A DNA stretch of 64,000 bases from an uncultured Elusimicrobia bacterium (GTDB taxonomy: Bacteria; Elusimicrobiota; Elusimicrobia; UBA1565; UBA9628). The translations under genes were made by a program, and so were the position numbers. Below the pieces are notes generated by a model. It saw nothing but the letters and a program-made list of their open reading frames with translations, ran no database searches and was not told the origin of the DNA. The stretch lies in contig CAYHPY010000001.1 in assembly GCA_964358485.1 (NCBI GenBank), positions 81,382 to 145,381 on the forward strand, given 5' to 3'. Positions 35,660 to 64,000 of the stretch are shown here, piece by piece; the first letter of the stretch is position 1; the number at the start of each line of letters is the position of its first letter.

Positions 35660-35663
35660 GCGC

Positions 35664-50055: not shown

Positions 50056-50237
50056 TCGGGCCGTCCTTTCCTCCCCGGTTCTGGCCCTTACTCCTGGCTT
50101 TGTCGGCTCCCGCCCGGGCCGGCCGGCACGAGGACGGGACAGTTTGGACGGGGCCCATGGCGCTGTTTGAGTCGCGGGGTTTCAAGCCCCTGCGCGAGGC
50201 GGGGGAGCGGGTGGTGATGGAGTTCCTCGTTCCCTAG
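50040..50237 (+). pseudogene. chimeric junction ORF: signal-peptide-like 5' part fused to a duplicated GNAT 3' fragment
   Basis: The 3' part (AGRHEDGTVWTGPMALFESRGFKPLREAGERVVMEFLVP) duplicates the GNAT C-terminus. The 5' part (SFPPRFWPLLLALSAPARAG) resembles the signal region of the gene at 52754. The junction is at the shared cccgggccggc. Confidence 0.5.
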
Positions 50238-50280
50238 ATTCCCCCTGCCCTGGCGTGTTCGGGGCGGAGGTGTTATCCTT

Positions 50281-51135
50281 ATGAGGATGCCAAAAAGGGG
50301 CCTTTGGGCGTTGGCGCTTTTATTCCTCCTTCCGGGAGCATGGGCGGCTCCACCCACCGATGAGGAGCTTGAGGCCGAGGACCGCAAGGAATTGGTCACG
50401 CCGGCGCCTCCGGATTTTAAGCCCGAGGGCGAAGAGCGGAAGCTGAAGCTGACGCTCATTGCCCGGGATTCGAAAATCCGCAAAGGCGAAAATTTTTGGT
50501 ATCGCCTCGAGGTCCAAAACGTCGGTCCTCGAGCCATTCCTTTTAAGGCGAAGTGGTCTTTTTTTAAGGTTGGATACGGAGAGGCGTTGAATTACCGTTT
50601 TCTGGTGACGCCTCCCGGCGGGGTCGAATTGGATCCGCCAATTCGGTTCATGTTGTCGATGGGTAGGGCCTATCTTGACCCTTTTGTTCCCGGTGGGGCA
50701 AAAATGTCGGTCGCCGAGCGGGCCGAAGCGGCTCGTAAAATTGCGGACGACATTCCCCGAAAAGAGGCGCGGGGTTTCGGGCTTCTGGTCAATTTGTCTT
50801 CGGGCGAGACTCTCCGCACCCGTTCCTGGGAATACTTGGACCAAGGCCGCGCCTATCGGCGGCTGAGACAAGGTGAGGATCCATTTCCTGCAACCCCGGG
50901 AGAATTTAGGGAATTGGCTCTCGCTTCGTTTAAATTCGATAAGGTCGGCACTTATCGTATCCGAGTGGAATTCGCGGCCGATCCCTGGCTTGTGGCTCCG
51001 GATGAGGAAGAGATTCAGGAGGGAATTGAGTTTGGCCTCACCCGTGAATGGCAAATGGAGCAGTATGAAGAGAGGGTCCAAAGATCCCTCGGCCGATTCC
51101 AATCCAATATCGTCGAAGTCGAAGTCGTTCCGTGA
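50281..51135 (+). CDS. secreted protein, cassette copy 2 gene A
   Basis: Paralog of 47672-48526. The upstream 190 bp (50238-50427) is identical to 47629-47818. Confidence 0.6.
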   Translation: MRMPKRGLWALALLFLLPGAWAAPPTDEELEAEDRKELVTPAPPDFKPEGEERKLKLTLIARDSKIRKGENFWYRLEVQNVGPRAIPFKAKWSFFKVGYGEALNYRFLVTPPGGVELDPPIRFMLSMGRAYLDPFVPGGAKMSVAERAEAARKIADDIPRKEARGFGLLVNLSSGETLRTRSWEYLDQGRAYRRLRQGEDPFPATPGEFRELALASFKFDKVGTYRIRVEFAADPWLVAPDEEEIQEGIEFGLTREWQMEQYEERVQRSLGRFQSNIVEVEVVP

Positions 51136-52703
51136 GAGTCGGGCTCCTCGCCCTTCTGTGGCTTATTTTCCCCGTTGGCCGGGCGGCTGCCGCCCCCTGC
51201 GATCTCGATCTTCAGAAACGCGTTTCGGTTTGTGAGCCGCCTAAGGAGGAACGCGAACGACTGATGAAAATGGTGCGGCGAGTCGTCGAGGCGCACGGGA
51301 TTTACCAGGATTCTTGGTCTCGGGAAATCACTCTGCGGGAAATGGCCGCCGGGAAGGAGGATTTGAATCTTCTGGGTAAATGGAGGCGGAGTTTGATCGA
51401 TGTTGAATGGCAACGGAAGAGGATGGAGTTGTATGCGGGGCGTGCTTTATTGGCGGTTCAGAGAATTTACGGAATTGTCCCCACCGCCATTTCCCGAGAA
51501 GTCTTCAATGGCCCGTTTGCGCGCCATCCTGCACGGTGGGAGCCGCGCTTCTTGCATTCAAGAAAAATCGGCGAGGGCGAATATCAGGCGGCGTATCGGT
51601 CCGAGAAGTGTCCGGATGGCTCGGAATATTTTTTAGAAACGAGATTCGGGTCTGGGGATGGTGGAGTAACTGACGAGGACGGGCAGGTTAATATTGGAAT
51701 TGAGGCGTTTTATTGGTCGGTCAGATATGGAAGCCCGCTCCTTTTGGCGTTGACGGTGCACCATGAGGAAGTCCATTTCTGGGAACTCGTGTCCAGCGGA
51801 TGGGACACGCATGAGGACGGGGAGAAGCGCGTGTGGGGAAAGACGCTCGCGGCGGCGGAGGCCATGGGAGCCGATGCTCTCATGAAGAATGACATTGAGC
51901 AACAAATGCTGAATTTTGAAAAGGACGCGGAAGGCGGGGGGGATGGAGTGGCGGCGTCGAGTTCCCCGTTTCATAGCGAGAATATTCAGTTCGATGCGGC
52001 CTTTGACTTCGAGAAAGCCTTGTTGGATTCTCAGATGGCGAATCTGGAACGCGGGGCCTTATCCCGGCGGCTGGAGGATTTGAGGGCCGAAGCCGCGGGG
52101 AAATCCGAGGCGGCCAAGAAGGCCGGGATGTTGACACGCTTGGAGGAGGAGGCCGCCCGCTGCGGGTTCAAGTTGCTTCACCCGGGCAATTGGGATCGAT
52201 ACGGGTTCTATGAAGAGGAAGTTCCGGGGAATAGGCACTTGGGGGCGCACTATTATTTCGCCAGAGGCCTCAATTGGGATGAATTTCGGACGGTCCTTTT
52301 TCTGGCGAGGGTTTGCCTGGACGAAGGGCTGGGGGAGCCTTGCAACGACGGCCTGGACATCATCAATCTGCGATGGGGAAAGGACGGCTTCGGGGATGGG
52401 TGGGAGCTGGCGGTGGAAGGCGGCCAGGGTGGGCAAGAGGCGTGCCTCGAATACCTCCAGGGGCGGCTCAAACCCCCCATGAGCGTTCGCGGCATCGACA
52501 CGGCGGCCTCGCGGGCCTGGAAAGACCTCCGAAAGCGTTGGAAGCGGGAGGGGGAGGCCGCCATGAGGCGCCACCGGCAGCAGCAGGCGGAGGCCGAACG
52601 GCCGCGAAAAATCCGGGATCGCGACACTGATGATTCCGACGATGAGCGCCGTTGCGGCAATGCGAATTCAGAAACCGGAATCGTGGGTTGCCGCTCCCGC
52701 TGA
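51132..52703 (+). CDS. secreted HExxH-motif protein, cassette copy 2 gene B
   Basis: Paralog of 48523-50055; HExxH present as TVHHEEVHFWEL. Conserved N-terminal Cys pair and C-terminal tail. Confidence 0.6.
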   Translation: MRVGLLALLWLIFPVGRAAAAPCDLDLQKRVSVCEPPKEERERLMKMVRRVVEAHGIYQDSWSREITLREMAAGKEDLNLLGKWRRSLIDVEWQRKRMELYAGRALLAVQRIYGIVPTAISREVFNGPFARHPARWEPRFLHSRKIGEGEYQAAYRSEKCPDGSEYFLETRFGSGDGGVTDEDGQVNIGIEAFYWSVRYGSPLLLALTVHHEEVHFWELVSSGWDTHEDGEKRVWGKTLAAAEAMGADALMKNDIEQQMLNFEKDAEGGGDGVAASSSPFHSENIQFDAAFDFEKALLDSQMANLERGALSRRLEDLRAEAAGKSEAAKKAGMLTRLEEEAARCGFKLLHPGNWDRYGFYEEEVPGNRHLGAHYYFARGLNWDEFRTVLFLARVCLDEGLGEPCNDGLDIINLRWGKDGFGDGWELAVEGGQGGQEACLEYLQGRLKPPMSVRGIDTAASRAWKDLRKRWKREGEAAMRRHRQQQAEAERPRKIRDRDTDDSDDERRCGNANSETGIVGCRSR

Positions 52704-53351: not shown

Positions 53352-54770
53352 ATGGCCCGCCAATCCGCCTACGACGTGGTCGTCATCGGCAGCGGGCCGG
53401 GCGGCGAGGGCGCGGCCATGAAGTCGGTGAAAGCCGGGCTCTCCACCGCGGTCGTGGAATCCTTCCGGGAAGTCGGGGGAGCCTGCACGCACCGGGGGAC
53501 CATCCCCAGCAAGGCCCTGCGCCAAGCCGTTCAGCAATTGGCCGAGTTTCGGCGCAATCCCTGGTATAAGCGCGCGGCCGCCCGCTTTTCCGTCGATTTC
53601 CCCGATCTCTTGAAGGAAGCCGACCGGGTGATGTCGGCCCAGGTGCGCCTGCGGACCTCGTTTTACGAGCGCAACGGGGTCAAGATTTTGGAAGGCCGCG
53701 CCGCCTTCGGCGGGAAAAACGAGATCCGGGTGGAGCATCCGGAGCACGGCGCCCTGGTCCTGAAAGCGGCCAATGTCGTCCTGGCCATGGGCTCCCGTCC
53801 TTACCGTCCCCCGGAGGTGGATTTTTCCCATCCCCGCGTGCTCGACAGCGACAAGGTCCTGGGCCTCAAGGAAACCCCGGCGTCGATCGTGATCTTCGGG
53901 GCCGGCGTGGTCGGCTGCGAGTACGCCTCCATTTTCCGGAGCCTGGGCTCGAAGGTAACCTTGGTCAACACCCGGGAGAAGCTTTTGACCTTCCTGGACG
54001 ACGAAATCATCGACGCCTTGAGCTACCACCTGCGCGACCAGGGCGTGATCCTCCTGCACAACGAGGAGCATGCCAAGGTGGAGGCCGACGAGAAGGGAGT
54101 TTCCTTGCATCTGAAATCCGGGAAAAAGATTCGGGCCGAGTGCCTGCTCTGGGCCAACGGCCGGACCGGCAACACCGATGGCATGGGGCTCGAGTCCCTG
54201 GGCGTCAAGCTCGACTCCCGGGGCAACGTCCAGGTGGACGAGAATTACCGGACCGCGGCCCCGCATGTCTTCGCGGTGGGCGACGTGGTGGGTTTCCCGG
54301 CCTTGGCCTCGGCGGCCTACGACCAGGGGCGCTTTGCCGCCACCCAGATCGTGGAGGGCCGCTGCGACGAGCGCTTGGCCCGGGACATCCCCGCCGGAAT
54401 CTATACTTTGCCGGAGATTTCCAGCGTCGGGCGCACCGAGCGGGAGCTCACGGCGGCCAAGGTGCCCTACGAGGTTGGCCATGCCTTTTTCCGGAGCCTG
54501 GCCCGGGCCCAGCTCATGGGCGAGACCGTGGGCATGCTCAAGCTTTTGTTTCACCGGGACACCCTGGAGATTTTGGGCGTGCACTGCTTCGGCTCCCAGG
54601 CCGCCGAGATCATCCACATCGGCCAGGCGATTTATTCCCAGAAGGGCCCGGCCAACTCCCTGCTCTACTTCATCAACACCACCTTCAATTATCCCACCAT
54701 GGCCGAAGCCTACCGCGTCGCCGCGCTCAACGGCTACAACCGCCTCAAAGGCATCGCCCCCAAGGCCTAG
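53352..54770 (+). CDS. sthA: soluble pyridine nucleotide transhydrogenase
   Basis: Near-collinear match to E. coli SthA/UdhA: [57 protein letters not shown]. Confidence 0.9.
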
Positions 54771-54773
54771 GAT

Positions 54774-54838
54774 GGTGCCAGGTATCCACTTTCTTAACAT
54801 TCGCCCGGGGAAAGTTTAGAAAGTGGATACCTGGCACC
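54774..54838. mobile_element. MITE-like 65-bp element with perfect 21-bp TIRs (copy 2)
   Basis: ggtgccaggtatccactttct taacattcgcccggggaaagttt agaaagtggatacctggcacc; begins 4 bp after the sthA stop. The core differs from copy 1 by 2 nt. Confidence 0.55.
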
Positions 54839-54844
54839 AATGAT

Positions 54845-55528
54845 ATGAAGGGTTTGAGGGGGGTGGGGGTTGTCGTTGGGGTGGTCTTGGCGGTCATGGT
54901 CGTTCGCGCCAAGGGCGGGTGGTTTTTGGAGTCGTTCGCTTTGGGGATGAAGAGTTTCGGCGCTTTCGCCCCCGCGGTTTTGATCTTGGCTTATGTTCCG
55001 GCCTGCCTGTTTTTGATTCCCGGGTCGGCCCTGAGCCTGGCGGCGGGAGCGGTGTTCGGGACGCTCCGGGGGACGATCTATGTTTCGGCGGGCTCGGTCC
55101 TGGGGGCGTGCGCGGCTTTTTTCGCCGGGCGCTATTTGGCCCGGGACTGGGTGCGGGGCCGGCTGGCCGAGCATCCGCGCTTGGAGGTCTTGAGCAAGGC
55201 GGTCGGCAAGGAAGGCTGGAAATTGGTCGGCTTGACCCGGCTTTCCCCGGTGTTTCCCTTCAACCTGCTCAACTACGCCTACGGGGTGAGCGAGGTTTCC
55301 TTCCGGGATTACCTGCTGGCCTCCTGGATCGGGATGCTGCCCGGGACTTTGCTTTACGTGTCGTTGGGCTCCTTGCTGGGAGAGGCGACGGGAGTCAGCG
55401 AGGCCGCGGGCTTGATGAGCGCGGCCCCCGGCTACCGGTGGGTCTCCATCCTGGGCTTTTTGGCCACGGTCGCGGTGGCGGTCCTGGCGGGAAAGCTGGC
55501 CAAGGACGCGCTCGAGAGGAAACTCTAA
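54845..55528 (+). CDS. DedA/TVP38/TMEM64 family membrane protein
   Basis: Start trimmed to MKGLRG. Typical DedA motifs (PGSALSLAAGAVFG, GLTRLSPVFPFNLLNYAYG). Confidence 0.75.
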   Translation: MKGLRGVGVVVGVVLAVMVVRAKGGWFLESFALGMKSFGAFAPAVLILAYVPACLFLIPGSALSLAAGAVFGTLRGTIYVSAGSVLGACAAFFAGRYLARDWVRGRLAEHPRLEVLSKAVGKEGWKLVGLTRLSPVFPFNLLNYAYGVSEVSFRDYLLASWIGMLPGTLLYVSLGSLLGEATGVSEAAGLMSAAPGYRWVSILGFLATVAVAVLAGKLAKDALERKL

Positions 55529-56865
55529 TGGAACCGGAACTGGGTTGCGTGCGCCGCACCTTGCGCTTCTATGGGACCCTCTTTGCCGGGTCGGGGGTGG
55601 CCTTCCTCCTGGCCGGGGGCTGGGTCCTGTGGGGGATGAACTTGATCGGGGCCCGCCTTCCCGGGGGCGCCGAGGTCCCGCTGGGGCCGGTAACGCTTTG
55701 GTTGGGATTGACCGGCTCGCTCATGGCGGTTCTGGTGGCCGCGACATTTTTCCTGGCGCGCGACCCGCGCCAGGAAAACATCTGGTTTCTGGTCATTCTT
55801 TCTAAGTTCGTTTCGGCGGGATTGTTCGCGGCGTTCGCTTTTGCCACGGGCAACTCCGGGTTTTTGCTGGCGGCGGCGACCGACGGCCTCATCGGCCTTC
55901 ATTACATTTACTTGCGGGGGATCGTCCGGTTGTACCGGCACGGGACCTTCGAGCCGTACTTTCCCGCCGCGAGCGGTCCTTTCTACGAGGTGTGGTTTGC
56001 CAAGGCCAACGATCCCAAGACCCGGAGCGCGGTCTGGGTGCGCTATGTTTTCGAGCGGGGCGTCGAAGGCGCGCGCGCTTCGTGCTGGTGGATCCTCTTT
56101 GACGCCCCCTCCGGCAAGGTGGCCCACGGGAAATGGGAATGGGACGCCTCCGAGCTCTTGAGCGGCCCGAAGAGTCCGTTCCGCCTCAATGTCTCGCGGG
56201 TGGAGCCGGGGCGGCTGTTGGGGGCGGGGGAGGGCGCTTTCTGGGATTTCGCCTGGACGAACGCCGGCGCGCCGGCGTTCTCCTTCGTCCCCCCGGTCCT
56301 GGCGGGGATTTTGCCGTCGGGGTATGCCGTTCCGTTGAGCCTCGGGCGTTTCACGGGCAGCGCGACCATCGACGGCACGACGCTGGAGCTCAAAGACGCC
56401 CCGGGTTCTATCGGCCACCTGTGGGGCCCGCGCATGGCCCAGTCCTGGCGCTGGGCCCACGCGGTCTTGGACGGAAAAAACGGCCCTTCGGTTCTGGAGA
56501 TCTTGACGGCGCGGGTCATGCTCGGGCCGTGCCGCTCCCCGGAAATGACCACGGCTCATTTCTGGCACGAGGGGCGGCATTATCAGAGCGTCGGCCTGCT
56601 CGCGGCCCTGACCACGGCCTCCCGGCGGGAAGGGGAGACTTGGACTTTCCGGATCGATTTCGGGGAGCTGTCGGTCGAGGGGGAGTGCTCCCCCGCCGCT
56701 GGCTTAAGCGTTGCGTTGCCGTACCAAAGTCCCGACGGCCGCGCCTTGACCTGCCAGAATTCCAAAACCGGAGCCATGCGCCTGACCCTCCGCCGTCCCG
56801 GGCGGGAGGCGGAAATCCTGTCGACGGCCGATCAGGCCGCCGTCGAATTCGCCGGGCCCGCATGA
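55528..56865 (+). CDS. membrane protein with C-terminal soluble domain (tentatively CrtC/AttH lipocalin-like)
   Basis: About 4 N-terminal TM helices, then a 300-aa Trp-rich soluble domain (WEWDASELL, FWDFAWTNAG, GHLWGPRMAQSWRW). The family assignment is weak. Confidence 0.35.
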   Translation: MEPELGCVRRTLRFYGTLFAGSGVAFLLAGGWVLWGMNLIGARLPGGAEVPLGPVTLWLGLTGSLMAVLVAATFFLARDPRQENIWFLVILSKFVSAGLFAAFAFATGNSGFLLAAATDGLIGLHYIYLRGIVRLYRHGTFEPYFPAASGPFYEVWFAKANDPKTRSAVWVRYVFERGVEGARASCWWILFDAPSGKVAHGKWEWDASELLSGPKSPFRLNVSRVEPGRLLGAGEGAFWDFAWTNAGAPAFSFVPPVLAGILPSGYAVPLSLGRFTGSATIDGTTLELKDAPGSIGHLWGPRMAQSWRWAHAVLDGKNGPSVLEILTARVMLGPCRSPEMTTAHFWHEGRHYQSVGLLAALTTASRREGETWTFRIDFGELSVEGECSPAAGLSVALPYQSPDGRALTCQNSKTGAMRLTLRRPGREAEILSTADQAAVEFAGPA

Positions 56866-57242
56866 ACGCGGCCGCCCTTATTTTCCCCCTGCTGGCGGCG
56901 TACGCCGCGCACGCCCAAAGCCCGGTTTCGCAAGAAGAGCTCAAGCGCCAACTCGAGCGCCGTCTCTCGTTTTTTCCGTTTTGGATGCGGCTTTACTTCG
57001 CGGCGAGCGCCGTTTATGTCGGTTGGCTCGGCCCGACTTTGGTCCTGGGCCGCTGGCGGCGCTTTTCCGCGCTGGATGAAGTCGAGGCCGAGGACTGCCT
57101 GGGCCGCCTTCAGCGCGACGGGCGGCTCTTCATCCGCGGGCCTTTCCTGGGGATCAAGAGCCTGCTGTTGGCGTGCTGTTACGGCTCTCCCGAGTTTTTG
57201 AAAACCATCGGCTATCGGGCGGGGGCCAAGTCCCATGCTTGA
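56862..57242 (+). CDS. small hypothetical protein upstream of GMC oxidoreductases (possible small subunit)
   Basis: 127 aa with an N-terminal hydrophobic segment. Overlaps the neighbouring genes by 4-8 bp, suggesting an operon. Confidence 0.4.
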   Translation: MNAAALIFPLLAAYAAHAQSPVSQEELKRQLERRLSFFPFWMRLYFAASAVYVGWLGPTLVLGRWRRFSALDEVEAEDCLGRLQRDGRLFIRGPFLGIKSLLLACCYGSPEFLKTIGYRAGAKSHA

Positions 57243-58668
57243 GGATTTCGATTTTGCGGTGGCGGGCGGCGGAGCGGCGGGCTGCGCCTTGGCCGAGCGG
57301 CTCTCTTCGGAAGGCGCGCGGGTGCTGCTCATCGAGAAAGGCGGCCGGGCCAAGCCCGGGGCCGACGCCTTCGAGGCGGTGTATCGTTACTACACCCGCG
57401 CCGGGCTCTCCGCTTCTCTAGGCAACTGCCTTCTGCCCATTCCAACCGGGACGGCGCTCGGCGGGACCACCACCATCAACTCGGCCACCTGCCTGATGAC
57501 TCCCAAGGAAACCTTGGAGCGCTGGGAGCGGGGGGCGGCGGGCGGCTTTTCGGCGGGGGAATTTCAGGGTCATCTGGACGAGGCCTGGCGGCGCCTGATG
57601 GTCAAGACCGCTCCGGCCGAAACGATGAGCGCTTCCAGCGGATTGTTTCTCAAGGGGCTGAGCGCGCTGGGCTTGGAGGGCGGCCACCGCCTGGACCGCG
57701 CCGAGGACCGGTGCGTCGGCTCGGGGCTTTGCTGTTTCGTCTGCCCCGAGGACGCCAAGATGAGCGCGGAGAAGGCGTTTTTGCGGCGGCCCGCGGCGGG
57801 GCTTGAGATCGCCGTGGACACCGGACTGGAGTCGATTTCCGAGGAGCCCTCGGCCGTCCGGCTCCTTCTGCGCGGCCCCGGCGGAACTCGCCGGATCGTT
57901 CGATGCGGGCGGCTGGTCCTGGCCTGCGGGAGCCTGGCCACGCCCTATTTCGTCCGCCGGTTCAAGCTGGGCGCCCGTTGGGCGGCGGCGGGCAACGAGC
58001 TTTCCCTGCATCCGGCCAGCAAGGTCTTCGCCCTCTTCGACGAATCGGTGAAAAGCTGGACCGGCGTGCCCCAAGGCGCGGGCTGGGTGGACCCGCGGGA
58101 GCCGCTCATCCGCTACGAGGGCGTCTACACCCCGCCGGAGATGGCGGCGGTGACCATGCCCTTGGAGGGACGCGCGCTGGCGTGGTGGTTGTCCCGCTAC
58201 GACAAGGTGGCGACCTTCGGCTTTATGATCCGCGACCGCAGCCGGGGCAGCGTCCGCTATCCCGGAGGGCCGGACCTTCCCCTGATCCGCTACGACATGG
58301 GCCCCGAGGACGCCGCCCTCATGGTCCGGGCCATGAAGTTCGTGGGCCGGGCGTTTTTCGCGGCCGGGGCCAAGCGGGTGGTCATCCCCATCAACCGCGA
58401 AGGAAACGATTTCACGGACGCCGCGGCCCTGGAGCGCGAGGAGTTTCCCGGCGCCCGGCCCCGGGAATTTCAGATGATGGCCTTCCACCCATTGGGGACT
58501 TGCGGGGCGGGACGCGCGGTGGGCTGGGACCTGGCTTTGACGGACCGGATTTTCGTCTGCGACGGCTCGGTGGTGCCGGAAAGCCTGGGGGTCAATCCCC
58601 AGATCACGATCTACGCCTTCGCGCTGAGGCTGGCCGAGCGGCTTCTGGGAAGGGTCCATGCGGGTTGA
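57235..58668 (+). CDS. GMC family FAD-dependent oxidoreductase
   Basis: N-terminal FAD-binding motif DFDFAVAGGGAAGCALAERL. The C-terminal GMC region is present (HPLGTCGAG, CDGSVVPESLGVNPQITIYA). Confidence 0.7.
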   Translation: MLEDFDFAVAGGGAAGCALAERLSSEGARVLLIEKGGRAKPGADAFEAVYRYYTRAGLSASLGNCLLPIPTGTALGGTTTINSATCLMTPKETLERWERGAAGGFSAGEFQGHLDEAWRRLMVKTAPAETMSASSGLFLKGLSALGLEGGHRLDRAEDRCVGSGLCCFVCPEDAKMSAEKAFLRRPAAGLEIAVDTGLESISEEPSAVRLLLRGPGGTRRIVRCGRLVLACGSLATPYFVRRFKLGARWAAAGNELSLHPASKVFALFDESVKSWTGVPQGAGWVDPREPLIRYEGVYTPPEMAAVTMPLEGRALAWWLSRYDKVATFGFMIRDRSRGSVRYPGGPDLPLIRYDMGPEDAALMVRAMKFVGRAFFAAGAKRVVIPINREGNDFTDAAALEREEFPGARPREFQMMAFHPLGTCGAGRAVGWDLALTDRIFVCDGSVVPESLGVNPQITIYAFALRLAERLLGRVHAG

Positions 58669-60190
58669 GGATTTCTCGGACCTCCCGGAGGAGGGACACT
58701 TCGATTTCGTGGTGGTGGGCTCGGGCTTCGGGGGCTCCGTGGCGGCTTTGCGCCTGGCGGAAAAGGGTTACTCCGTGGCGGTCCTGGAGGCCGGGCGGCA
58801 TTTCCGGGACCGGGATTTTGCCGGGTCCAACTGGAACCTGGCCAAGACCTTCTGGCTCCCGGAATTCTTCCTGCGCGGAATCATGCGCCTGACCTTGCTC
58901 AAGGACGTCCTGATCCTCTCCGGGGCGGGCGTGGGCGGGGGCTCCTTGGTCTACGCCAACACCTTGCTGGAACCCGGGGACCGGTTTTACGATTCGGAGC
59001 AGGTCAAACGCCTGGCGCCCAATCTCCGTGAACTGCTCCGCCCTCATTACGCGATGGCCAAGCGCATGCTGGGCGTGGCCGTCAACCCCCGCCTTTTTCC
59101 CGCCGACGAGACTTTGCGCGAAATCGCGGAGGAAACCGGACGGGGGGACACCTTTGAGCCCACCAAGGTCGGGGTGTTTTTTGGCGAGCCCGGCAAGACC
59201 GTGCCCGATCCTTACTTCGAGGGCGCGGGCCCGGAGCGGGCGGGCTGTCTTTTCTGCGGGGCCTGCATGGTGGGCTGTCGGCACAACGCCAAGAACACCT
59301 TGGCCAAGAACTACCTGTACCTGGCCTCCGGCAAGGGCGCCCGGATTTTTTCGCTATCCCAGGTGTCTCGGATCGAGGAAGGCCCCAAGGGTTTCGAGCT
59401 GAGCGTGCGCCGCCCCGGCTGGGGCGGGGGCCGGCGCAAACTGCGGTGCGCCAAGCTCGTGGTGAGCGCGGGCGTGCTGGGCACCATCCGCCTGCTCCTG
59501 TCCCCGGAAAACCGCCTTTCCGCCCTGCCCGCGCGCCTGGGCCGGGACGTGCGGACCAACTCCGAGGTGATCATGGGCGCGACGGATTTGGCCGGCAAAA
59601 AAGATTACTCCCAAGGCCTGGCCATCAGCGCCGGCTTTTGGGCGGACGAGGACACGCACATCGAGGCCGTGCGCTATCCGGAAGGTTCCGACGCGATGAG
59701 CCTGCTCTCCATCCCCTGGAAAAAAGGCCTCGGGCTCTTCAAGCGCCTTCGCCTGGCCTGGCCCCTGGGCTGGGCCAAGAACAGCACCATTCTCCTGGTG
59801 ATGCAGGCCCTGGACACCCGGCTGCGCTTGGTTTTGAAAGGCGGCCGCCTTCACAGCGAACCCGAGCCGGGATCCGCGCCCCTGCCCCTTTCGATCCCCG
59901 CCGCCGACCGCACCCTGGAGCGCTATTGCGAAAAGACCGGCAGCTCAGGCCTGGCCTCGGCCGCGGGCGAGCTCCTGGGCGTTTCCACCACCGCCCACAT
60001 CCTGGGCGGGGCGGTGATGGCGCGCGGGCCGGAGGACGGGGTCACCGGCCTGGACGGCAAAGTCTTCGGCTACGACAACCTGTGGATCCTGGACGGCTCC
60101 GTGGTCCCGGCCAACCTCGGGGTCAACCCGTCTCTCACCATCACGGCCTTAAGCGAGCACGCCATGAGCCAGGTCCCACCCAAGCCATGA
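58658..60190 (+). CDS. GMC family oxidoreductase (cholesterol-oxidase-like subgroup)
   Basis: FDFVVVGSGFGGSVAALRLAEKG, the FCGACMVGCRHNAKNTL segment typical of the cholesterol oxidase/GMC group, and a C-terminal LDGSVVPANLGVNPSLTITAL. Confidence 0.75.
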   Translation: MRVEDFSDLPEEGHFDFVVVGSGFGGSVAALRLAEKGYSVAVLEAGRHFRDRDFAGSNWNLAKTFWLPEFFLRGIMRLTLLKDVLILSGAGVGGGSLVYANTLLEPGDRFYDSEQVKRLAPNLRELLRPHYAMAKRMLGVAVNPRLFPADETLREIAEETGRGDTFEPTKVGVFFGEPGKTVPDPYFEGAGPERAGCLFCGACMVGCRHNAKNTLAKNYLYLASGKGARIFSLSQVSRIEEGPKGFELSVRRPGWGGGRRKLRCAKLVVSAGVLGTIRLLLSPENRLSALPARLGRDVRTNSEVIMGATDLAGKKDYSQGLAISAGFWADEDTHIEAVRYPEGSDAMSLLSIPWKKGLGLFKRLRLAWPLGWAKNSTILLVMQALDTRLRLVLKGGRLHSEPEPGSAPLPLSIPAADRTLERYCEKTGSSGLASAAGELLGVSTTAHILGGAVMARGPEDGVTGLDGKVFGYDNLWILDGSVVPANLGVNPSLTITALSEHAMSQVPPKP

Positions 60191-60840
60191 CGCGGCGCGC
60201 GCCCTGGATCGTCACGGTCGAATACGCCCTGGGGCTCTCGGCCCTGGCCGCGGCCTTGGGGATCAACTACTGGGCCGGCCGCCTGGCCGACACTTTCGGG
60301 GAAGGCGCGCCGATTTTGCAGGACCTGTTTTTGTCCACCCTTCCGGTGGTGGACACCCAGGTGATCTTCGTCTACGGCTACGGATTTTTTTTAGCGTGGC
60401 TGTTCACCGCGGTCCTGCTGTGGGAGCGGCGGCGGGCGCCCTATATCGCCTGGTCCTTCGCGCTACTCATCGTGGTCCGGTCCTTCTTTATTCTGCTGAC
60501 GCCTCTGCACCATCCCCTGGCGGAGCTGCCGGTGGCGGGGGACCCGCTTTATGAGGCCATCGGCCGCTACCTCACCTTCAAGCATGACCTGTTTTTTTCC
60601 TCGCATACTTCAACGCCGTTTTTGGCCGCGCTGATTTTGCGGGGGCGTTGGGTGCGCCGCTCGTTTTTGGCGATTTCCCTGATCATGGCGGCGACCGTGC
60701 TGTTGGGGCGCTATCATTATTCGATCGACGTGTTCGGGGCTTTTTTCATCACCTACGCCCTGCACAAGGGCGAGGTGCGGTGGTTTCAGCCCGCGTATGG
60801 CCGGCTTAAGGCCCGGCTGACGGCCGTTTCGTCCTCTTAG
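60187..60840 (+). CDS. PAP2-superfamily (sphingomyelin-synthase-like) membrane protein
   Basis: 6 TM helices with PAP2 C-motifs (SSHTS, GRYHYSIDV). Confidence 0.55.
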   Translation: MTRRAPWIVTVEYALGLSALAAALGINYWAGRLADTFGEGAPILQDLFLSTLPVVDTQVIFVYGYGFFLAWLFTAVLLWERRRAPYIAWSFALLIVVRSFFILLTPLHHPLAELPVAGDPLYEAIGRYLTFKHDLFFSSHTSTPFLAALILRGRWVRRSFLAISLIMAATVLLGRYHYSIDVFGAFFITYALHKGEVRWFQPAYGRLKARLTAVSSS

Positions 60841-61067
60841 GGCAGGCAGGCAAAAAACCGCGCCGCGGAGCAGACCAGGACTTCGTCCCGGAGGGTCAAG
60901 AGCTCCGCGGGAGCGTCGCGAACCACCTGGAGGGCCGCCTCCGGCTAGGCGTTCCTTGAAGTCGCGCATGGCTTTTATGGTTTACATGAAACTATAAAAA
61001 AGTCATGACCTATTTATATGTATATATAAAAAAGTCATACCCATTCCGCCTAAAAAAAGGGGCCCGC

Positions 61068-61112
61068 CCGGGGCTCCTGGGACCCCGGGCGGACCTTTCT
61101 CGGCACGACTAA
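61068..61112 (-). terminator. rho-independent terminator for the minus-strand cytochrome gene
   Basis: aaaaaaa ggggcccgcccgggg ctcctggga ccccgggcggac: a GC-rich hairpin followed on the minus-strand transcript by a U7 run, 16 bp after the stop at 61128. Confidence 0.5.
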
Positions 61113-61127: not shown

Positions 61128-61565
61128 TTATTTCTTGTGGCACTTCATGCAGCCGCCCTTGGAGGCGAAGGCCTTCTTGCCGTCATGGCAGGAACCGCAG
61201 TTCTTGCCGGCGTACATGTCGGACATCTTCAGCCCGACATCGGACTTCTTCTGCTGGAACAAGGCGGGCTCGCCCTCATGGCAGGTCTTGCAGTCCGCTT
61301 TCGCTTGGTGCTTGCGGTGGGGGAATTTGACCGGGGCCATTTTGGCGGTCTTGTCGAAGAGGATCGTCTCCGGGCCGTTCTTGGCGTCGGCGGCCGGGGC
61401 GGCTTCGGCCGCGGGGGCCGCTTCCGGGGCCTTGGCTTCGGCGGCGGGCGCCTTGGCCTTTTCTTCCTTGGCCTTGGCTTTGCCTTCGCCGGCGCAAGCG
61501 GAGCCGGACAGAAAGGCCGTCATCAACAACGCGCTCAGAACTGCGGTGAAACGGGGCATGGTCAA
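61128..61565 (-). CDS. triheme c-type cytochrome lipoprotein (c3/c7-like)
   Basis: Signal plus lipobox (LLMTAFLSGSACAG), an Ala/Lys/Glu-rich linker, then three CxxCH motifs (CKTCH, CGSCH, CMKCH). Confidence 0.7.
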   Translation of the reverse strand: MTMPRFTAVLSALLMTAFLSGSACAGEGKAKAKEEKAKAPAAEAKAPEAAPAAEAAPAADAKNGPETILFDKTAKMAPVKFPHRKHQAKADCKTCHEGEPALFQQKKSDVGLKMSDMYAGKNCGSCHDGKKAFASKGGCMKCHKK

Positions 61566-61665
61566 TCCTCCTTGTCGAGGGCCGGTCGGGACCCTCCTGC
61601 CGGAAACTATGCAACATTTTCGCCTAATTTAAAAAGGCCAGACTGTTGCAATCTGATAGGGCGCT

Positions 61666-63459
61666 ATGAATTTCTTCGCGGTCGGCGGGGTGTTATTCGC
61701 CTTCGCGGCTTCCGCCGCCTTCGGAGCGGTTCCCCCGGGATTGGAGAAATCCGTGCACGCGGGGCTGGATTGCGCGTCCTGCCACTCCGGGCCCGAGACG
61801 GGAGGCATGGCCAAGGCGGACTGCTCGACCTGCCATGACGGCCCGGCCAAGGCCTTGGGGGCCACCCGGCACGGACAGGCCTTGGCCCGGAGCAAAGGGG
61901 CGGGCGCTGGGGCCTGCTTGGCTTGCCACGGGTCCGGCCATCAAATAAAAAAAGCGGCGGCCGAGGGTTCCCCCACAGGCCGGGCCAATCAGCCCGCGAC
62001 CTGCGGCGCCTGCCACGGCAATGGAGGCAAGGGCGCCCACATGCCCGACGGGCACGCGGCCCTGGAGTCCTACCGTCTGAGCGTTCACGGCCAAGCCCTG
62101 GCGGCCGGAAACGCCAAGGCGGCGGCCTGTTCCGATTGCCACGGGGGCCACGACATTCGGAGCCCGGGCAAGGCCGGTTCCAAAGTGGGGCGCGCGAACT
62201 TGGCCGCGACTTGCGGGGCTTGTCACGCCAAGGAAGCGGAGGGTTACCGGGGCGGCGTCCACGGCCGGGCCTTGGCCCGAGGCGTCCGGGAGTCGCCCTC
62301 CTGCACCGACTGCCACGGGGAGCACACGATCCGCTCCCCGAAGGAATCCGGCTCCAGCGTCTGGCGCGGGTCGGTGACCAAGACCTGCTCGGGCTGTCAT
62401 GGCTCCGAGCGCATCGCCGCCAAATTCGGGGTCCCCACCGACCGGCTCAAGACCTTCATGGATTCCTACCACGGCCTGGCGGCCGGGGGCGGGAACTTGA
62501 GCGTGGCCAACTGCGCCTCCTGCCACGGCTGGCACGACATTCTGCCCTCCGACGATCCCCGCTCCACCGTCCATGGCGGCAACCTGGCCGGGACCTGCGG
62601 GCAATGCCATCCGGGCGCCGCGATGAAGCTTTCCGGGGGCAAGGTTCACGCCTCCTTGGCGGGGTTCGGCGAGGGAAGCCGCATCGCAGCCATACTCAAG
62701 AAAATTTACCTGATTCTGATTCCCCTGGTGATTCTGGGCCTGCTGTTTCATAATTTCGCGGATCTCCTTCGCAAGGCCTTGGCGTCGGCCCCCTTGCCGC
62801 CCTTGAAAGACGAGACCGGGGATATCCTGTTGACCCGGGGAGAGCGGCTCCAGCATGGAGCGTTGGTCGCGTCCTTCGTTCTTCTGGCCATCAGCGGCTT
62901 CGCCCTCAAGTATTCCGGCTCCTGGCTGGCGGCGGCTTTCTCCTTGCTGGGGGGAGAAGGGGGCCGTCTGTACGCTCATCGGGCGGCGGCCGCGGCCTTC
63001 GTCGCCTTGGCCGTCGTGCATCTGGGCTATTTGGCCTTCTCGGCCCCGGGCCGCCGGCGCCTGCGGGCGATTTTCCCGGCGCGCCGCGACCTTCCCGACG
63101 CGGCCGCGCTTCTGCTCTTCAACCTGGGGCTCTCCGGAGACCGCCCCAAGCTCCCGCGCTGGTGCTACATCGAAAAATCGGAGTACTGGGCCCTGATGTG
63201 GGGCTCGGCCGTCATGATCGCGACGGGGGCGGTTCTCATTTTCCACAATTTCGTGATGGCGAAATTTCCGTTGTGGGTGATCGAGGCGTCGCGGGTCGTG
63301 CATTTCATGGAGGCGGTGCTGGCCTGCCTGTCGATCATCGTGTGGCACGGCTACTGGGTGAGCTTCGACCCCGAGGTCTATCCCATGAGCTGGGCGTGGT
63401 TGACGGGGCGCCATCGTTTGGGAGGGGCGCACCGCAAAGGAGAGCCGGGCCATGATTGA
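61666..63459 (+). CDS. CbcL-like fusion: decaheme c-type cytochrome domain plus C-terminal dihaem b-type cytochrome (HydC/FdnI-like) membrane domain
   Basis: Signal peptide and ten CxxCH motifs (CASCH, CSTCH, CLACH, CGACH, CSDCH, CGACH, CTDCH, CSGCH, CASCH, CGQCH). Then 4 TM helices, each with a conserved His (LQHGALVASF, VVHLGYLAF, LIFHNF, IVWHGYW). Confidence 0.75.
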   Translation: MNFFAVGGVLFAFAASAAFGAVPPGLEKSVHAGLDCASCHSGPETGGMAKADCSTCHDGPAKALGATRHGQALARSKGAGAGACLACHGSGHQIKKAAAEGSPTGRANQPATCGACHGNGGKGAHMPDGHAALESYRLSVHGQALAAGNAKAAACSDCHGGHDIRSPGKAGSKVGRANLAATCGACHAKEAEGYRGGVHGRALARGVRESPSCTDCHGEHTIRSPKESGSSVWRGSVTKTCSGCHGSERIAAKFGVPTDRLKTFMDSYHGLAAGGGNLSVANCASCHGWHDILPSDDPRSTVHGGNLAGTCGQCHPGAAMKLSGGKVHASLAGFGEGSRIAAILKKIYLILIPLVILGLLFHNFADLLRKALASAPLPPLKDETGDILLTRGERLQHGALVASFVLLAISGFALKYSGSWLAAAFSLLGGEGGRLYAHRAAAAAFVALAVVHLGYLAFSAPGRRRLRAIFPARRDLPDAAALLLFNLGLSGDRPKLPRWCYIEKSEYWALMWGSAVMIATGAVLIFHNFVMAKFPLWVIEASRVVHFMEAVLACLSIIVWHGYWVSFDPEVYPMSWAWLTGRHRLGGAHRKGEPGHD

Positions 63460-64000
63460 TTGGAAAAAGTGGCTGTCCTGGAAGACGCTCTTCAGCGTGC
63501 CCAGCATCATCGTTCTTTCCTTGGCGGGGCTGGGCGGGGTCGTGCACTACTCGGAAACCCCGTCTTTCTGCCGCTCCTGCCACATCATGGAGCCGTATTA
63601 CAAAGCCTGGAACGACTCCAAGCACAAGAACGTCAAATGCGTGGAGTGTCACTATCCGCCCGCCCAGCCCAAGACTTTGCTTTGGAAGAAGTTCCAGGCG
63701 TTCTCGCAGGTGGCCAAGTACGTCACCCGGACCTATTCCTCCAAGCCCTTCGCCGAGGTTGACGATTCCTCCTGCCTGCGCTCGGGCTGTCATTCCACCC
63801 GGTTGTTGGAAGGCAAGATCCGGACCAAGGGCGGGATCAACTTCGACCATCGTCCCCACTTGACCGAGGTCCGCCGCGGGCGCAAGCTGCGCTGCACCTC
63901 CTGCCACGGTCAGGTCATGGTCGGCAATCATATCGAAGTGACCTACGACACCTGCTACCTCTGCCATTTCAAGGGCCGCGGGGAAGGGCGGGAGCTCAAG
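63452..64000 (+). CDS. NapC/NirT family tetraheme membrane-anchored quinol dehydrogenase (partial, runs off window end)
   Basis: ATG at 63452 overlaps the previous stop by 8 nt. N-terminal TM anchor, then CRSCH, CVECH, CTSCH and CYLCH motifs. No stop before the window edge. Confidence 0.7.
   Translation, partial: MIDWKKWLSWKTLFSVPSIIVLSLAGLGGVVHYSETPSFCRSCHIMEPYYKAWNDSKHKNVKCVECHYPPAQPKTLLWKKFQAFSQVAKYVTRTYSSKPFAEVDDSSCLRSGCHSTRLLEGKIRTKGGINFDHRPHLTEVRRGRKLRCTSCHGQVMVGNHIEVTYDTCYLCHFKGRGEGRELK

What the first reader, a model, noticed from the sequence alone, without database searches (positions are those of the whole stretch)
61128..64000. Respiratory multiheme cytochrome module: triheme lipoprotein, CbcL-like decaheme-c/dihaem-b fusion, NapC/NirT quinol dehydrogenase
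The 597-aa protein fuses ten CxxCH haems to a 4-TM domain with one His per helix (HydC/FdnI-like). That architecture is known from Geobacter CbcL-type quinone-oxidoreductases used in extracellular electron transfer. Its gene overlaps a NapC/NirT homolog and is divergent from a triheme c lipoprotein. This suggests capacity for periplasmic or extracellular electron transfer to metals or other acceptors, a notable trait in an unidentified lineage.
Basis: partly seen in the sequence, partly recalled or inferred. Interest (0 to 1): 0.55.

Follow-up and report, generated by a model that had tools for sequence, protein, structure and literature searches.

The report
Quinol-linked multihaem cytochrome gene cluster
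A groundwater Elusimicrobiota bacterium carries a conserved gene cluster for membrane cytochromes that pass electrons between the quinone pool and the periplasm; it is a real but fairly ordinary member of a family already known from metal-respiring bacteria.

Summary
Window positions 61128-64000 encode a trihaem c7-type cytochrome (minus strand). Divergent from it is a 597-aa protein with 10 CxxCH motifs fused to an FdnI-type cytochrome b domain. An 8-nt-overlapping third gene runs off the window.

The 597-aa protein fits the CbcL/MtoC/MtrH family. All four FdnI haem-b ligands align to invariant His residues, and the structural model's best solved match is FdnI. It is 30% identical (E 2e-69) to an Elusimicrobia protein already published as a CbcL homologue.

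Three details need correcting.
- The His ligands sit on helices 1, 2 and 4 (two on helix 4), not one per helix.
- The C-terminal sixth helix of Geobacter CbcL is absent.
- The "NapC/NirT" gene is really a 552-aa, 15-haem protein. It has an NrfH-like head and an NrfA/OcwA-like C-terminal module.

A pentahaem gene follows. Its orthologues sit beside Rieske/cytochrome b genes in two of three relatives.

The lineage is Elusimicrobiota. The family has more than 7,700 homologues across many phyla. No porin-cytochrome lies in the window, although several relatives have MtrAB next to the gene.

Verdict: a new member of a known kind. Extracellular electron transfer is plausible but unproven.

The parts
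61061..61095 (-). Intrinsic-terminator-like hairpin (14-bp stem, 12 G-C pairs, T-run) just downstream of the c7-type gene. It suggests that this gene is monocistronic.
   Evidence: This is a consensus scan only; 10 such sites were found against 5.5 expected in the region, and this one is by far the strongest.
61128..61565 (-). Trihaem c7-type cytochrome, 145 aa from TTG or more likely 143 aa from the ATG at 61559. It has a signal peptide with a possible lipobox Cys, an Ala/Lys/Glu/Pro-rich linker, and a ~70-aa domain with CxxCH at residues 92, 123 and 139.
   Evidence: TIGR04257 72.8 bits, cut-off 40; PF14522 52.9 bits. Orthologues sit next to the CbcL-like gene in L003, L088, L089 and L090, at 48-71% identity.
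61566..61665 (.). 100-bp divergent intergenic region. It holds a sigma-54-like -24/-12 element, AGGCCAGACTGTTGCA, at 61635-61650. It also holds the inverted repeat TGCAAC (61611-61616) / GTTGCA (61645-61650).
   Evidence: The same GG-N10-GC spacing about 15 nt before the start codon is seen in L089 (scan output) and in L003 (read by eye from the printed sequence). Sigma-54 activator and sigma-54 DNA-binding-domain genes flank the cluster in L003 and L088. Suggestive only.
61666..63459 (+). CbcL/MtoC/MtrH-family bc-cytochrome, 597 aa. It has a signal peptide and a periplasmic domain with 10 CxxCH and 10 conserved distal His (31, 69, 92, 141, 162, 199, 220, 269, 290, 328). A linker helix TM0 follows, then a 4-helix FdnI-type cytochrome b domain (residues ~390-567) and a conserved DPxVYPMxWAWLTG tail.
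   Evidence: AF2 mean pLDDT 87.8; Foldseek top hit 1kqf_C FdnI, prob 1.00, TM-score 0.67 on the target.
63452..64000 (+). First 183 codons of a 552-aa membrane-anchored pentadecahaem cytochrome. It has one TM helix (residues 12-32) and an NrfH-like quinol-dehydrogenase head: CxxCHxM at 40-46, CxxCH at 63, CxxxxCH at 108 and CxxCH at 148. The rest lies beyond the window and was read from L001/L085: 9 more CxxCH plus CxxxCH at 489, and an NrfA/OcwA-like helical module.
   Evidence: all 15 motifs invariant in 53 homologues; NrfH 2j7a_C E 7e-11; OcwA 6i5b E 2.9e-12.

Best explanation
The region is the start of a respiratory cytochrome cluster of a groundwater Elusimicrobiota bacterium. It connects the membrane quinone pool to chains of periplasmic c-type haems.

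**Gene 2 (597 aa)** is a CbcL/MtoC/MtrH-family bc-cytochrome.
- By homology to E. coli FdnI, quinol or quinone binds near the cytoplasmic-side haem b (ligands H397 and H561).
- Electrons cross the membrane through the second haem b (H438 and H546).
- They then enter a wire of ten bis-His c-haems in the periplasm.

**Gene 3 (552 aa)**, translationally coupled to gene 2, is a second, independent quinone-reactive protein.
- It has an NrfH-type head whose quinol site, by homology, faces the periplasmic side.
- The head is fused to about 11 further haems.

**Gene 1**, divergently transcribed, is a c7-type trihaem. It is the likely soluble or lipid-tethered carrier that takes electrons from these wires, as PpcA does for Geobacter CbcL.

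**Gene 4**, a pentahaem, probably belongs to an adjoining Rieske/cytochrome b complex.

**Most likely role:** oxidation of menaquinol with delivery of electrons to periplasmic carriers, and from there to a periplasmic or extracellular acceptor. The two oxidases would give two energetic gears, as CbcL and ImcH do in Geobacter.

**Shown:** gene structures, haem motifs, conserved ligands, fold, family relationships and conserved gene order.
**Inferred:** haem occupancy, topology of the quinone sites, direction of electron flow and the final acceptor.
For: **Architecture and ligands**
- 10 CxxCH plus PF01292.
- FdnI ligands H18/H57/H155/H169 align to H397/H438/H546/H561. These are His in 110 of 110 fused and unfused relatives.
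- The AF2 model has mean pLDDT 87.8. FdnI (1kqf_C) is its best solved match and hydrogenase-1 cytochrome b (4gd3_A) also appears.
- A profile of the family hits FdnI at E 7e-7.

**Family link**
- The protein is 30% identical over 580 aa (E 2e-69) to the protein next to P0199 in L091. That protein's haem-motif positions match OGS41263.1 (A2506_03110), listed as a CbcL/MtoC/MtrH homologue in PMC6295460.
- The spacing of the last five haem motifs (30, 28, 42, 28) matches that tabulated for GSU0274 (29, 28, 43, 28).

**Gene 3**
- One TM helix, CxxCHxM, an NrfH profile match and 15 invariant motifs.

**Conserved linkage**
- The c7 / CbcL-like / 15-haem triad is present in the four closest relatives with enough contig (L003, L088, L089, L090; 57-64% identity). 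Start and stop codons overlap or abut.
- 42 of 80 GTDB loci have a NapC/NirT-family gene within 3 kb of the CbcL-like gene. Of these, 36 are ImcH-type and 6 are multihaem-type, and 40 are on the same strand.

**Extracellular electron transfer context in relatives**
- A DmsE/MtrA-family decahaem (254 bits) and an MtrB/PioB porin (236 bits) lie in the same cluster in L004. phmmer homologues of these two proteins lie in L006-L008.

**Literature**
- CbcL is a menaquinol oxidase used at low potential, and its c domain was reported to form a functional redox complex with a periplasmic partner (10.1101/2022.08.31.506072). That the partner is PpcA is from my own knowledge of Antunes et al. 2022, not from a paper read here.
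Against: - No porin-cytochrome, terminal reductase or other cytochrome gene lies in the 61 kb upstream.
- The DNA downstream is unknown. All four assemblies of this organism end within ~0.7 kb after gene 3.
- Three of the four closest relatives have no MtrAB within 10 kb.
- Geobacter CbcL itself could not be aligned because no sequence was available.
- The protein differs from Geobacter CbcL: 10 haems rather than 9, and five rather than six TM helices after the signal peptide.
- The direction of electron flow cannot be read from sequence. The same family includes MtoC of Fe(II) oxidisers (PMC6295460).
- The NrfA/OcwA-like module in gene 3 could mean that it is itself a reductase.
Confidence: 0.65

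Rival explanations
1. The proteins are the same but the flow is reversed. The cluster takes electrons from a periplasmic or extracellular donor such as Fe(II), reduced humics or a partner cell. It reduces menaquinone at the cytoplasmic-side site of the FdnI-like domain, as proposed for MtoC of Fe(II) oxidisers. This would be a proton-motive half-loop like formate dehydrogenase-N.
For: - The CbcL/MtoC/MtrH family occurs in both Fe(III) reducers and Fe(II) oxidisers, with no distinguishing sequence feature (PMC6295460).
- The FdnI template works physiologically as a quinone reductase (established knowledge; fold match).
- In relatives the cluster is linked with Rieske/cytochrome b complexes and monohaem class-I cytochromes.
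- The source is oligotrophic groundwater, judging from the sample name.
Against: - No donor-side machinery (MtoAB, Cyc2) is seen in the window.
- The only family member with genetic evidence that I read about (Geobacter CbcL) acts as a quinol oxidase (10.1101/2022.08.31.506072).
Confidence: 0.2
2. The 552-aa protein is itself a membrane-anchored terminal reductase. An NrfH-type quinol dehydrogenase is fused through a haem wire to an NrfA/ONR/OcwA-type catalytic module. It would reduce a soluble periplasmic substrate such as nitrite, hydroxylamine, NO, sulfite or chelated metals. The cluster would then serve periplasmic respiration rather than extracellular electron transfer.
For: - A profile of the family hits OcwA (6i5b) at E 2.9e-12 over residues 246-493 and hits NrfH over residues 40-98.
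- The Foldseek top hits are NrfA, octahaem nitrite reductase and MccA, at prob 0.89-0.99 but E above 0.01.
- By my visual comparison, invariant H321 lies in a K-x-H...E-x-Y segment that resembles the NrfA distal-pocket segment. This residue correspondence is inferred, not computed.
- OcwA-type proteins keep penta-coordinated haems and reduce nitrite in vitro (PMC9250108).
Against: - There is no CxxCK motif.
- The number of conserved His and Met residues is enough for bis-ligation of almost all 15 haems.
- The model is poor exactly around residues 281-320 and 352-372, so a vacant coordination site cannot be judged.
- OcwA itself is a metal-oxide reductase (PMC6703420, title and abstract).
Confidence: 0.2
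3. The two quinone-reactive proteins work together as a redox loop. The CbcL-like protein would reduce menaquinone at the cytoplasmic face with electrons from a low-potential periplasmic donor. The NrfH-headed cytochrome would re-oxidise menaquinol at the periplasmic face and pass electrons to a higher-potential periplasmic or extracellular acceptor. This would translocate protons without any cytoplasmic substrate.
For: - There is frequent same-strand adjacency and start/stop overlap between CbcL-family and NapC/NirT/ImcH-family genes: 42 of 80 loci overall and 33 of 58 loci with full flanks.
- Hits to the two proteins that come from contigs of the same length rank in parallel by identity.
- The quinone sites are predicted on opposite faces by homology to FdnI and NrfH.
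Against: - This rests purely on inference.
- In Geobacter the two families are unlinked and act as alternative oxidases.
- Adjacency is absent in 43% of loci.
- No donor or acceptor has been identified.
Confidence: 0.1

Closest known systems
Geobacter sulfurreducens CbcL (GSU0274), and the CbcL/MtoC/MtrH family of Zhong & Shi 2018 (PMC6295460)
   Same: - An N-terminal periplasmic multihaem c domain is fused through a linker helix to a HydC/FdnI-type cytochrome b.
- The spacing of the last five haem motifs is the same.
- A c7-type trihaem partner is present.
- The family has already been recorded in Elusimicrobia.
   Different: - 10 haems rather than 9. Most of this protein's own relatives have 11.
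- The C-terminal sixth TM helix tabulated for GSU0274 and seen in OGS41263.1 is missing.
- Only 30% identical to the published Elusimicrobia homologue.
- Its gene is coupled to a NapC/NirT-family gene, whereas cbcL and imcH have distant locus tags in Geobacter (GSU0274 and GSU3259; the imcH tag is from my own knowledge).
- Direct alignment to GSU0274 was not possible.
E. coli formate dehydrogenase-N gamma subunit FdnI (PDB 1KQF chain C)
   Same: - A four-helix dihaem cytochrome b.
- All four haem ligands align.
- It is the best solved structural match.
- The conserved tail after TM4 resembles the FdnI tail; this is by eye only.
   Different: - There are no FdnG/FdnH partners. The periplasmic electron input or output is a covalently fused decahaem domain.
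- An extra helix (TM0) precedes the bundle.
- Two further conserved His residues (H362, H452) have no FdnI counterpart.
NrfH / NapC / CymA tetrahaem quinol dehydrogenases (PDB 2J7A chain C)
   Same: A single N-terminal TM helix, a CxxCHxM first haem motif, and a four-motif head of ~150 aa.
   Different: - 552 aa with 15 haem motifs.
- The third head motif is CxxxxCH.
- It scores below the NCBIfam NrfH and NapC/NirT equivalog cut-offs.
- No NrfA, Nap or Tor partner is present.
Geobacter ImcH
   Same: An inner-membrane NapC/NirT-related multihaem. In many phyla its homologue sits next to the CbcL-like gene (36 of 80 loci).
   Different: - ImcH-type proteins have 3 TM helices, CxxxCH plus 6 CxxCH, and ~500 aa.
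- The window's protein has 1 TM helix and 15 motifs.
- It matches an ImcH-type protein only over 71 residues of the head (34% identity, E 2e-7).
Thermincola OcwA / NrfA-ONR superfamily
   Same: The C-terminal half of the 15-haem protein matches the OcwA profile region, including the long helices.
   Different: - It is membrane-anchored and fused to an NrfH head.
- It has no CxxCK.
- Catalytic competence is unknown.

Membership tests
CbcL/MtoC/MtrH bc-cytochromes | Signal peptide plus a periplasmic domain with several CxxCH motifs (3-23 in the family) | tested here: met
   10 CxxCH against 0.036 expected by shuffling. 10 conserved non-motif His residues could serve as distal ligands.
CbcL/MtoC/MtrH bc-cytochromes | C-terminal HydC/FdnI-type (PF01292) cytochrome b domain with its four haem-ligating His | tested here: met
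   PF01292 scores 39.4 bits, above the cut-off of 30.1. Foldseek to 1kqf_C gives prob 1.00. H397, H438, H546 and H561 align to FdnI H18, H57, H155 and H169 and are His in 110 of 110 relatives.
CbcL/MtoC/MtrH bc-cytochromes | Significant full-length similarity to a recognised member | tested here: met
   BLASTP gives 30% identity over 580 aa, E 2e-69, to the L091 protein. Its motif positions match OGS41263.1 of Supplementary Table S2 of PMC6295460. Not tested against GSU0274 itself.
CbcL/MtoC/MtrH bc-cytochromes | Six TM helices including one at the extreme C-terminus, and nine haems, as in G. sulfurreducens CbcL | tested here: not met
   There are five helices after the signal peptide, and the protein ends 30 residues after TM4. 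It has ten haems. Haem number is known to vary in the family.
CbcL/MtoC/MtrH bc-cytochromes | Menaquinol oxidase activity used at low acceptor potential | not testable with these tools
   Needs genetics and electrochemistry.
NapC/NirT/NrfH tetrahaem quinol dehydrogenases | One N-terminal TM helix and the CxxCHxM first haem motif | tested here: met
   TM helix at 12-32. C40-x-x-C-H-x-M46 is invariant in 53 homologues. The NrfH 2j7a_C profile hit has E 7e-11. PF03264 scores 41.7 bits on the in-window part and 33.8 bits on the full protein, both above the cut-off of 24.1.
NapC/NirT/NrfH tetrahaem quinol dehydrogenases | A ~150-200 aa tetrahaem protein that reaches the curated equivalog scores | tested here: not met
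   552 aa with 15 motifs. TIGR03153 (NrfH) scores 69 bits against a cut-off of 134. TIGR02161 (NapC/NirT) scores 17.6 bits against 310.
ImcH | Three N-terminal TM helices, CxxxCH followed by about six CxxCH, ~500 aa | tested here: not met
   The window's protein has 1 TM helix and 15 motifs. BLASTP to an ImcH-type neighbour (L004, 504 aa) covers only the head, E 2e-7. ImcH-type genes are the partners in other phyla.
Cytochrome c7 / PpcA-type trihaem | A ~70-aa domain with three CxxCH motifs | tested here: met
   TIGR04257 scores 72.8 bits, above the cut-off of 40. PF14522 scores 52.9 bits. The Geobacter c7 equivalog scores 28 bits against a cut-off of 120, so it is not met.
Porin-cytochrome conduit (MtrAB/PioAB type) | A periplasmic decahaem plus an MtrB/PioB beta-barrel encoded with the quinol oxidase | tested here: not met
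   Nothing of the kind lies in the window's 61 kb upstream. Downstream cannot be seen. It is present next to the homologue in L004 and L006-L008.
NrfA/ONR/OcwA catalytic multihaem superfamily (C-terminal half of the 552-aa protein) | C-terminal module with long helices and a penta-coordinated catalytic haem | tested here: inconclusive
   The OcwA profile match has E 2.9e-12. Foldseek hits to NrfA are weak. There is no CxxCK. The model confidence is too low around the putative pocket.

The most novel reading that the evidence does not exclude
CbcL-family proteins have a cytoplasmic-face quinone site and NapC/NirT/ImcH-family proteins a periplasmic-face one. The two are encoded as translationally coupled neighbours in about half of all loci across many phyla. 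They may therefore form a two-site, quinone-mediated redox loop between two periplasmic haem wires. Such a loop would let cells conserve energy from electron flow that both begins and ends outside the cytoplasm.

A related open point concerns the TM His residues. The family keeps H452 as a fifth universally conserved His in the b domain, and fused members also keep H362 in TM0. FdnI needs only four His. The extra residues could mark a third haem or a specialised quinone pocket.
Probability: 0.1. Interest if true: 0.75.

Novelty: new member of a known kind. Interest (0 to 1): 0.35.

Why it matters
It adds a well-anchored example of Geobacter-type inner-membrane quinol:cytochrome modules in uncultivated groundwater Elusimicrobiota. 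That makes metal, humic or partner-directed electron transfer by this phylum a testable hypothesis.

Two by-products may be more useful than the finding itself.
- A conserved, uncharacterised family of 15-haem cytochromes fuses an NrfH head to an NrfA/OcwA-like module.
- CbcL-family genes are linked to NapC/NirT/ImcH-family genes in roughly half of loci across Acidobacteriota, Omnitrophota, Verrucomicrobiota, Planctomycetota and other phyla. The papers I read do not describe this linkage.

Tried and rejected
- **PDB by sequence.** phmmer of the 597-aa protein against PDB found nothing. Only a family profile reached FdnI.
- **Looking downstream.** I tried exact-protein look-ups for the 597-aa and 552-aa proteins. 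All four assemblies (window, L001, L085, L086) stop inside or just before the end of gene 4.
- **GTDB representative genomes.** The scan found no genome of this species; the best hit is 47% identical.
- **Geobacter CbcL.** No sequence could be obtained for a direct alignment. I used the motif and TM table of PMC6295460 instead.
- **Canonical NapC/NirT or NrfH for gene 3:** rejected on length, haem number and curated scores.
- **ImcH orthology for gene 3:** rejected on TM number, motif pattern and a head-only match.
- **Canonical NrfA:** rejected because there is no CxxCK.
- **A porin in the window:** the large secreted ORFs at 33503-36863 give only a FecR hit or nothing.
- **rRNA operon in the low-GC stretch at 48-52 kb:** rejected. 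There are no Rfam or tRNA hits, and the stretch is a duplicated protein-coding cassette.
- **Sigma-70 promoters:** the scan found none.

Full report
**1. Observation**

The three ORFs exist as described.
- A 145-aa protein lies on the minus strand at 61128-61565 with three CxxCH motifs.
- A 597-aa protein lies on the plus strand at 61666-63459 with ten CxxCH motifs.
- A third ORF starts at 63452, overlaps the previous stop codon by 8 nt, and runs off the window.

Residue shuffling gives 0.036, 0.008 and 0.023 expected motifs against 10, 3 and 4 observed. No other high-GC3 ORF in the 64-kb window has even one CxxCH. Pfam and NCBIfam confirm the domain calls: cytochrome c7/c3 domains and PF01292 in the 597-aa protein, the c7/nanowire trihaem domain in the 145-aa protein, and a NapC/NirT N-terminal domain in the third ORF.

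**2. The organism**

- An exact-sequence look-up finds the same genes on short contigs from Hainich groundwater metagenomes, judging by sample names of the form Hain_H52.
- Every named relative of the window's threonine synthase (70-80% identity) is Elusimicrobia/Elusimicrobiota.
- The same holds for the named best relatives of the 597-aa and 552-aa proteins.
- The cluster has the same G+C content as the rest of the window.

The lineage is therefore Elusimicrobiota, not unidentified.

**3. The 597-aa protein**

- More than 7,700 homologues were scored. The closest (57-64% identity) come from metagenomes.
- In an alignment of 66 homologues, nine of the ten CxxCH motifs are invariant. The first (C36-H40) is kept in at least 90%. 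Ten further His residues (31, 69, 92, 141, 162, 199, 220, 269, 290, 328) are invariant or nearly so. That is enough for bis-His ligation of ten haems.
- Most relatives have an eleventh, N-terminal motif that this protein and P0002 lack.

The AlphaFold2 model built on this alignment is confident (mean pLDDT 87.8). It shows a signal helix, a mostly helical haem domain, a long linker helix (TM0, 339-372) and a four-helix bundle. Its best solved structural match is FdnI, the cytochrome b of E. coli formate dehydrogenase-N (1kqf_C, prob 1.00, TM-score 0.67 on the target). Hydrogenase-1 cytochrome b appears further down the list. A family profile also finds FdnI by sequence (E 7e-7).

I aligned E. 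coli FdnI to an HMM of the membrane domain.
- Its four haem ligands H18, H57, H155 and H169 fall on H397, H438, H546 and H561.
- These four are His in all 110 fused and unfused relatives collected.
- The ligands come from helices 1, 2 and 4 (two from helix 4), as in FdnI, not one per helix. The helix-3 His (H527) is kept in 7 of 111 sequences.
- Two further His residues are conserved without an FdnI counterpart: H452 (110 of 110) and H362 in TM0 (84 of 91 fused proteins). I cannot explain them.

**4. Family membership**

Zhong & Shi (PMC6295460) defined the CbcL/MtoC/MtrH family as multihaem c domains fused to HydC/FdnI-like b domains. They found it in 15 phyla, including two Elusimicrobia proteins.
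- I recovered one of those two, A2506_03110 / OGS41263.1. It is the neighbour of a homologue of the window's third gene, and its motif positions match their table.
- It aligns with the window's protein over 580 residues at 30% identity, E 2e-69.
- The spacing of the last five haem motifs and the distance to TM0 match the values tabulated for Geobacter GSU0274.

There are differences. The protein has ten haems rather than nine. It also lacks the C-terminal sixth helix, which is tabulated for GSU0274 and visible in OGS41263.1.

I could not obtain the GSU0274 sequence. Orthology with CbcL proper is therefore untested, while membership of the wider family is supported.

**5. The third gene**

Contigs L001 and L085 extend past the window and show a 552-aa protein.
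- It has one TM helix (residues 12-32).
- It has 13 CxxCH, one CxxxxCH (residue 108) and one CxxxCH (residue 489). All fifteen motifs are invariant in 53 homologues, as is Met46 of CxxCHxM.
- The first ~155 residues match NrfH. The NCBIfam NrfH model gives 69 bits, below the equivalog cut-off of 134. The PDB profile hit to D. vulgaris NrfH has E 7e-11.
- Residues ~246-493 match OcwA of Thermincola (6i5b, E 2.9e-12). The weak Foldseek hits of a medium-quality model (pLDDT 74) are NrfA, octahaem nitrite reductase and MccA.
- There is no CxxCK.

The gene therefore encodes a fusion of an NrfH-type quinol-dehydrogenase head to a long haem wire that ends in an NrfA/OcwA-like module. It is not a conventional NapC/NirT protein, and it is not ImcH. 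ImcH-type proteins, such as the 504-aa protein in L004, have three TM helices and CxxxCH plus six CxxCH. The family (~550-610 aa) occurs in Elusimicrobia, Deltaproteobacteria, Riflebacteria, Eisenbacteria, Planctomycetota and others. It is annotated only generically.

**6. Neighbours and conserved gene order**

*Gene 4.* This is a pentahaem, seen only as truncated 217-aa (L001) and 226-aa (L085) fragments. Its complete orthologues are 241-262 aa.
- They directly precede a Rieske gene in L005, and Rieske/cytochrome b/cytochrome c genes in L089.
- The orthologue stands alone in L090.
- In L006 the 15-haem gene is followed directly by Rieske, cytochrome b and a nine-haem gene.

*The triad.* The c7 / CbcL-like / 15-haem triad is present in all four close relatives with enough sequence: L003, L088, L089 and L090. 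L089 also shares the GMC-GMC-PAP2 genes seen upstream in the window.

*The 80 GTDB loci.* These carry the CbcL-like gene in Elusimicrobia, Omnitrophota, Acidobacteriota, Verrucomicrobiota, Planctomycetota, Gemmatimonadota, NC10, Bacteroidota, Calditrichia, Ignavibacteriota and other phyla.
- 42 have a NapC/NirT-family gene within 3 kb (33 of the 58 loci with full flanks).
- 36 of these partners are ImcH-type and 6 are multihaem-type.
- 40 lie on the same strand.

*Porin-cytochrome genes.* An MtrA-type decahaem and an MtrB/PioB porin lie in the same cluster in L004. This was confirmed with NCBIfam (254 bits) and Pfam (236 bits). phmmer homologues of the two proteins lie in L006-L008, L026, L029 and L061. 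They are absent from the window, and three of the four closest relatives lack them within 10 kb.

**7. Mechanism**

*Shown:* motifs, conserved ligands, fold and gene linkage.

*Inferred from FdnI, NrfH and Geobacter work:*
- The b domain binds two haems. It has its quinone site at the cytoplasmic face next to the H397/H561 haem.
- Electrons cross the membrane to the ten c-haems and on to the c7 carrier.
- The NrfH head of the 15-haem protein oxidises quinol at the periplasmic face.
- With both encoded in one transcription unit, the cell would have two routes from menaquinol to periplasmic haems. The routes would differ in energy yield, as proposed for CbcL and ImcH in Geobacter (10.1101/2022.08.31.506072).

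The final acceptor (or donor) is unknown. My confidence estimates are:
- family-level identity: ~0.85;
- quinone-pool to periplasm electron transfer: ~0.7;
- extracellular metal reduction specifically: ~0.35.

Rival readings are reverse flow (an MtoC-like quinone reductase), a catalytic role for the 15-haem protein, and a two-site redox loop.

**8. Novelty**

The main protein is a new member of a family already described, including in this phylum. The partner 15-haem family is uncharacterised as far as I could find. The papers I read do not describe the CbcL-ImcH/NapC gene linkage. These points raise the interest slightly. However, nothing here would strongly surprise a specialist, and the key claim of extracellular electron transfer remains untested.

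Noticed in passing
window 47672-52703: Tandem duplication of a two-gene cassette. Each copy has a 284-aa secreted protein plus a 510- or 523-aa protein with an HExxH-like motif (HHEGFH / HHEEVH). The copies lie at 47672-50055 and 50281-52703. The first ~49 residues of the two 284-aa proteins are identical. G+C is ~0.575 against ~0.65 elsewhere.
   Followed up: no
window 61566-61665; L003, L088, L089: A sigma-54-like -24/-12 element (GG-N10-GC, AGGCCAGACTGTTGCA) lies ~15 nt before the CbcL-like start codon. L089 shows the same spacing in the scan, and L003 does so by eye. An inverted repeat TGCAAC/GTTGCA is also present. Sigma-54 activator, histidine kinase and sigma-54 DNA-binding-domain genes flank the cluster in L003 and L088. 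The short distance would leave almost no leader.
   Followed up: partly
window end; L001 9533, L085/L086 12385: Four independent assemblies of this organism all break within ~0.7 kb after the 552-aa gene, inside the pentahaem gene. This hints at a repeat or strain heterogeneity there. L085 and L086 are strain variants, with a 594-aa CbcL-like protein and split GMC oxidoreductase genes.
   Followed up: partly
597-aa protein residues 362 and 452 (window 62749-62751 and 63019-63021): Two conserved transmembrane His residues have no counterpart among FdnI's four haem ligands. H452 is His in 110 of 110 fused and unfused relatives. H362 in the linker helix is His in 84 of 91 fused ones. They could mark a third haem site or a quinone or proton pocket.
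   Followed up: partly
L049-L055, L063, L068, L069, L074, L075, L079-L082 (Acidobacteriota): Unfused pairs lie directly beside the fused CbcL-like gene. Each pair is an 11-haem cytochrome c (~400-450 aa) plus a separate ~290-aa FdnI-like cytochrome b, in a CbcBA-like arrangement.
   Followed up: no
L005 2347-3355; L006 11769-12761: In L005 a rhodanese-domain lipoprotein and a MauE/DoxX membrane protein are inserted between the CbcL-like gene and the 15-haem gene. L006 has similar-looking ORFs at the same place, judged by eye from their sequences.
   Followed up: partly
window 53352-60840: The upstream block comprises a pyridine-nucleotide-disulfide oxidoreductase, a tocopherol-cyclase-like protein (55939-56865; the listed 648-aa ORF from 54919 over-extends it), two GMC oxidoreductases and a PAP2-like membrane protein. 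A DedA/VTT-domain gene lies between the first two in the strain-variant contig L085. The GMC-GMC-PAP2 part is syntenic with L089. It may be a lipid- or quinone-modifying unit.
   Followed up: partly
L003 20-961; L088 69-3205 and 8410-9450; L013 13868-15714: Haem-supply genes cluster with the module in relatives. Glutamyl-tRNA reductase (hemA) is seen in L003 and L088 by Pfam, and ResB plus cytochrome c assembly genes in L088 by Pfam. In L013 the ResB/CcsA-like calls are by eye only.
   Followed up: no
whole window: There are no tRNA genes and no Rfam family matches at gathering threshold in 64 kb.
   Followed up: yes
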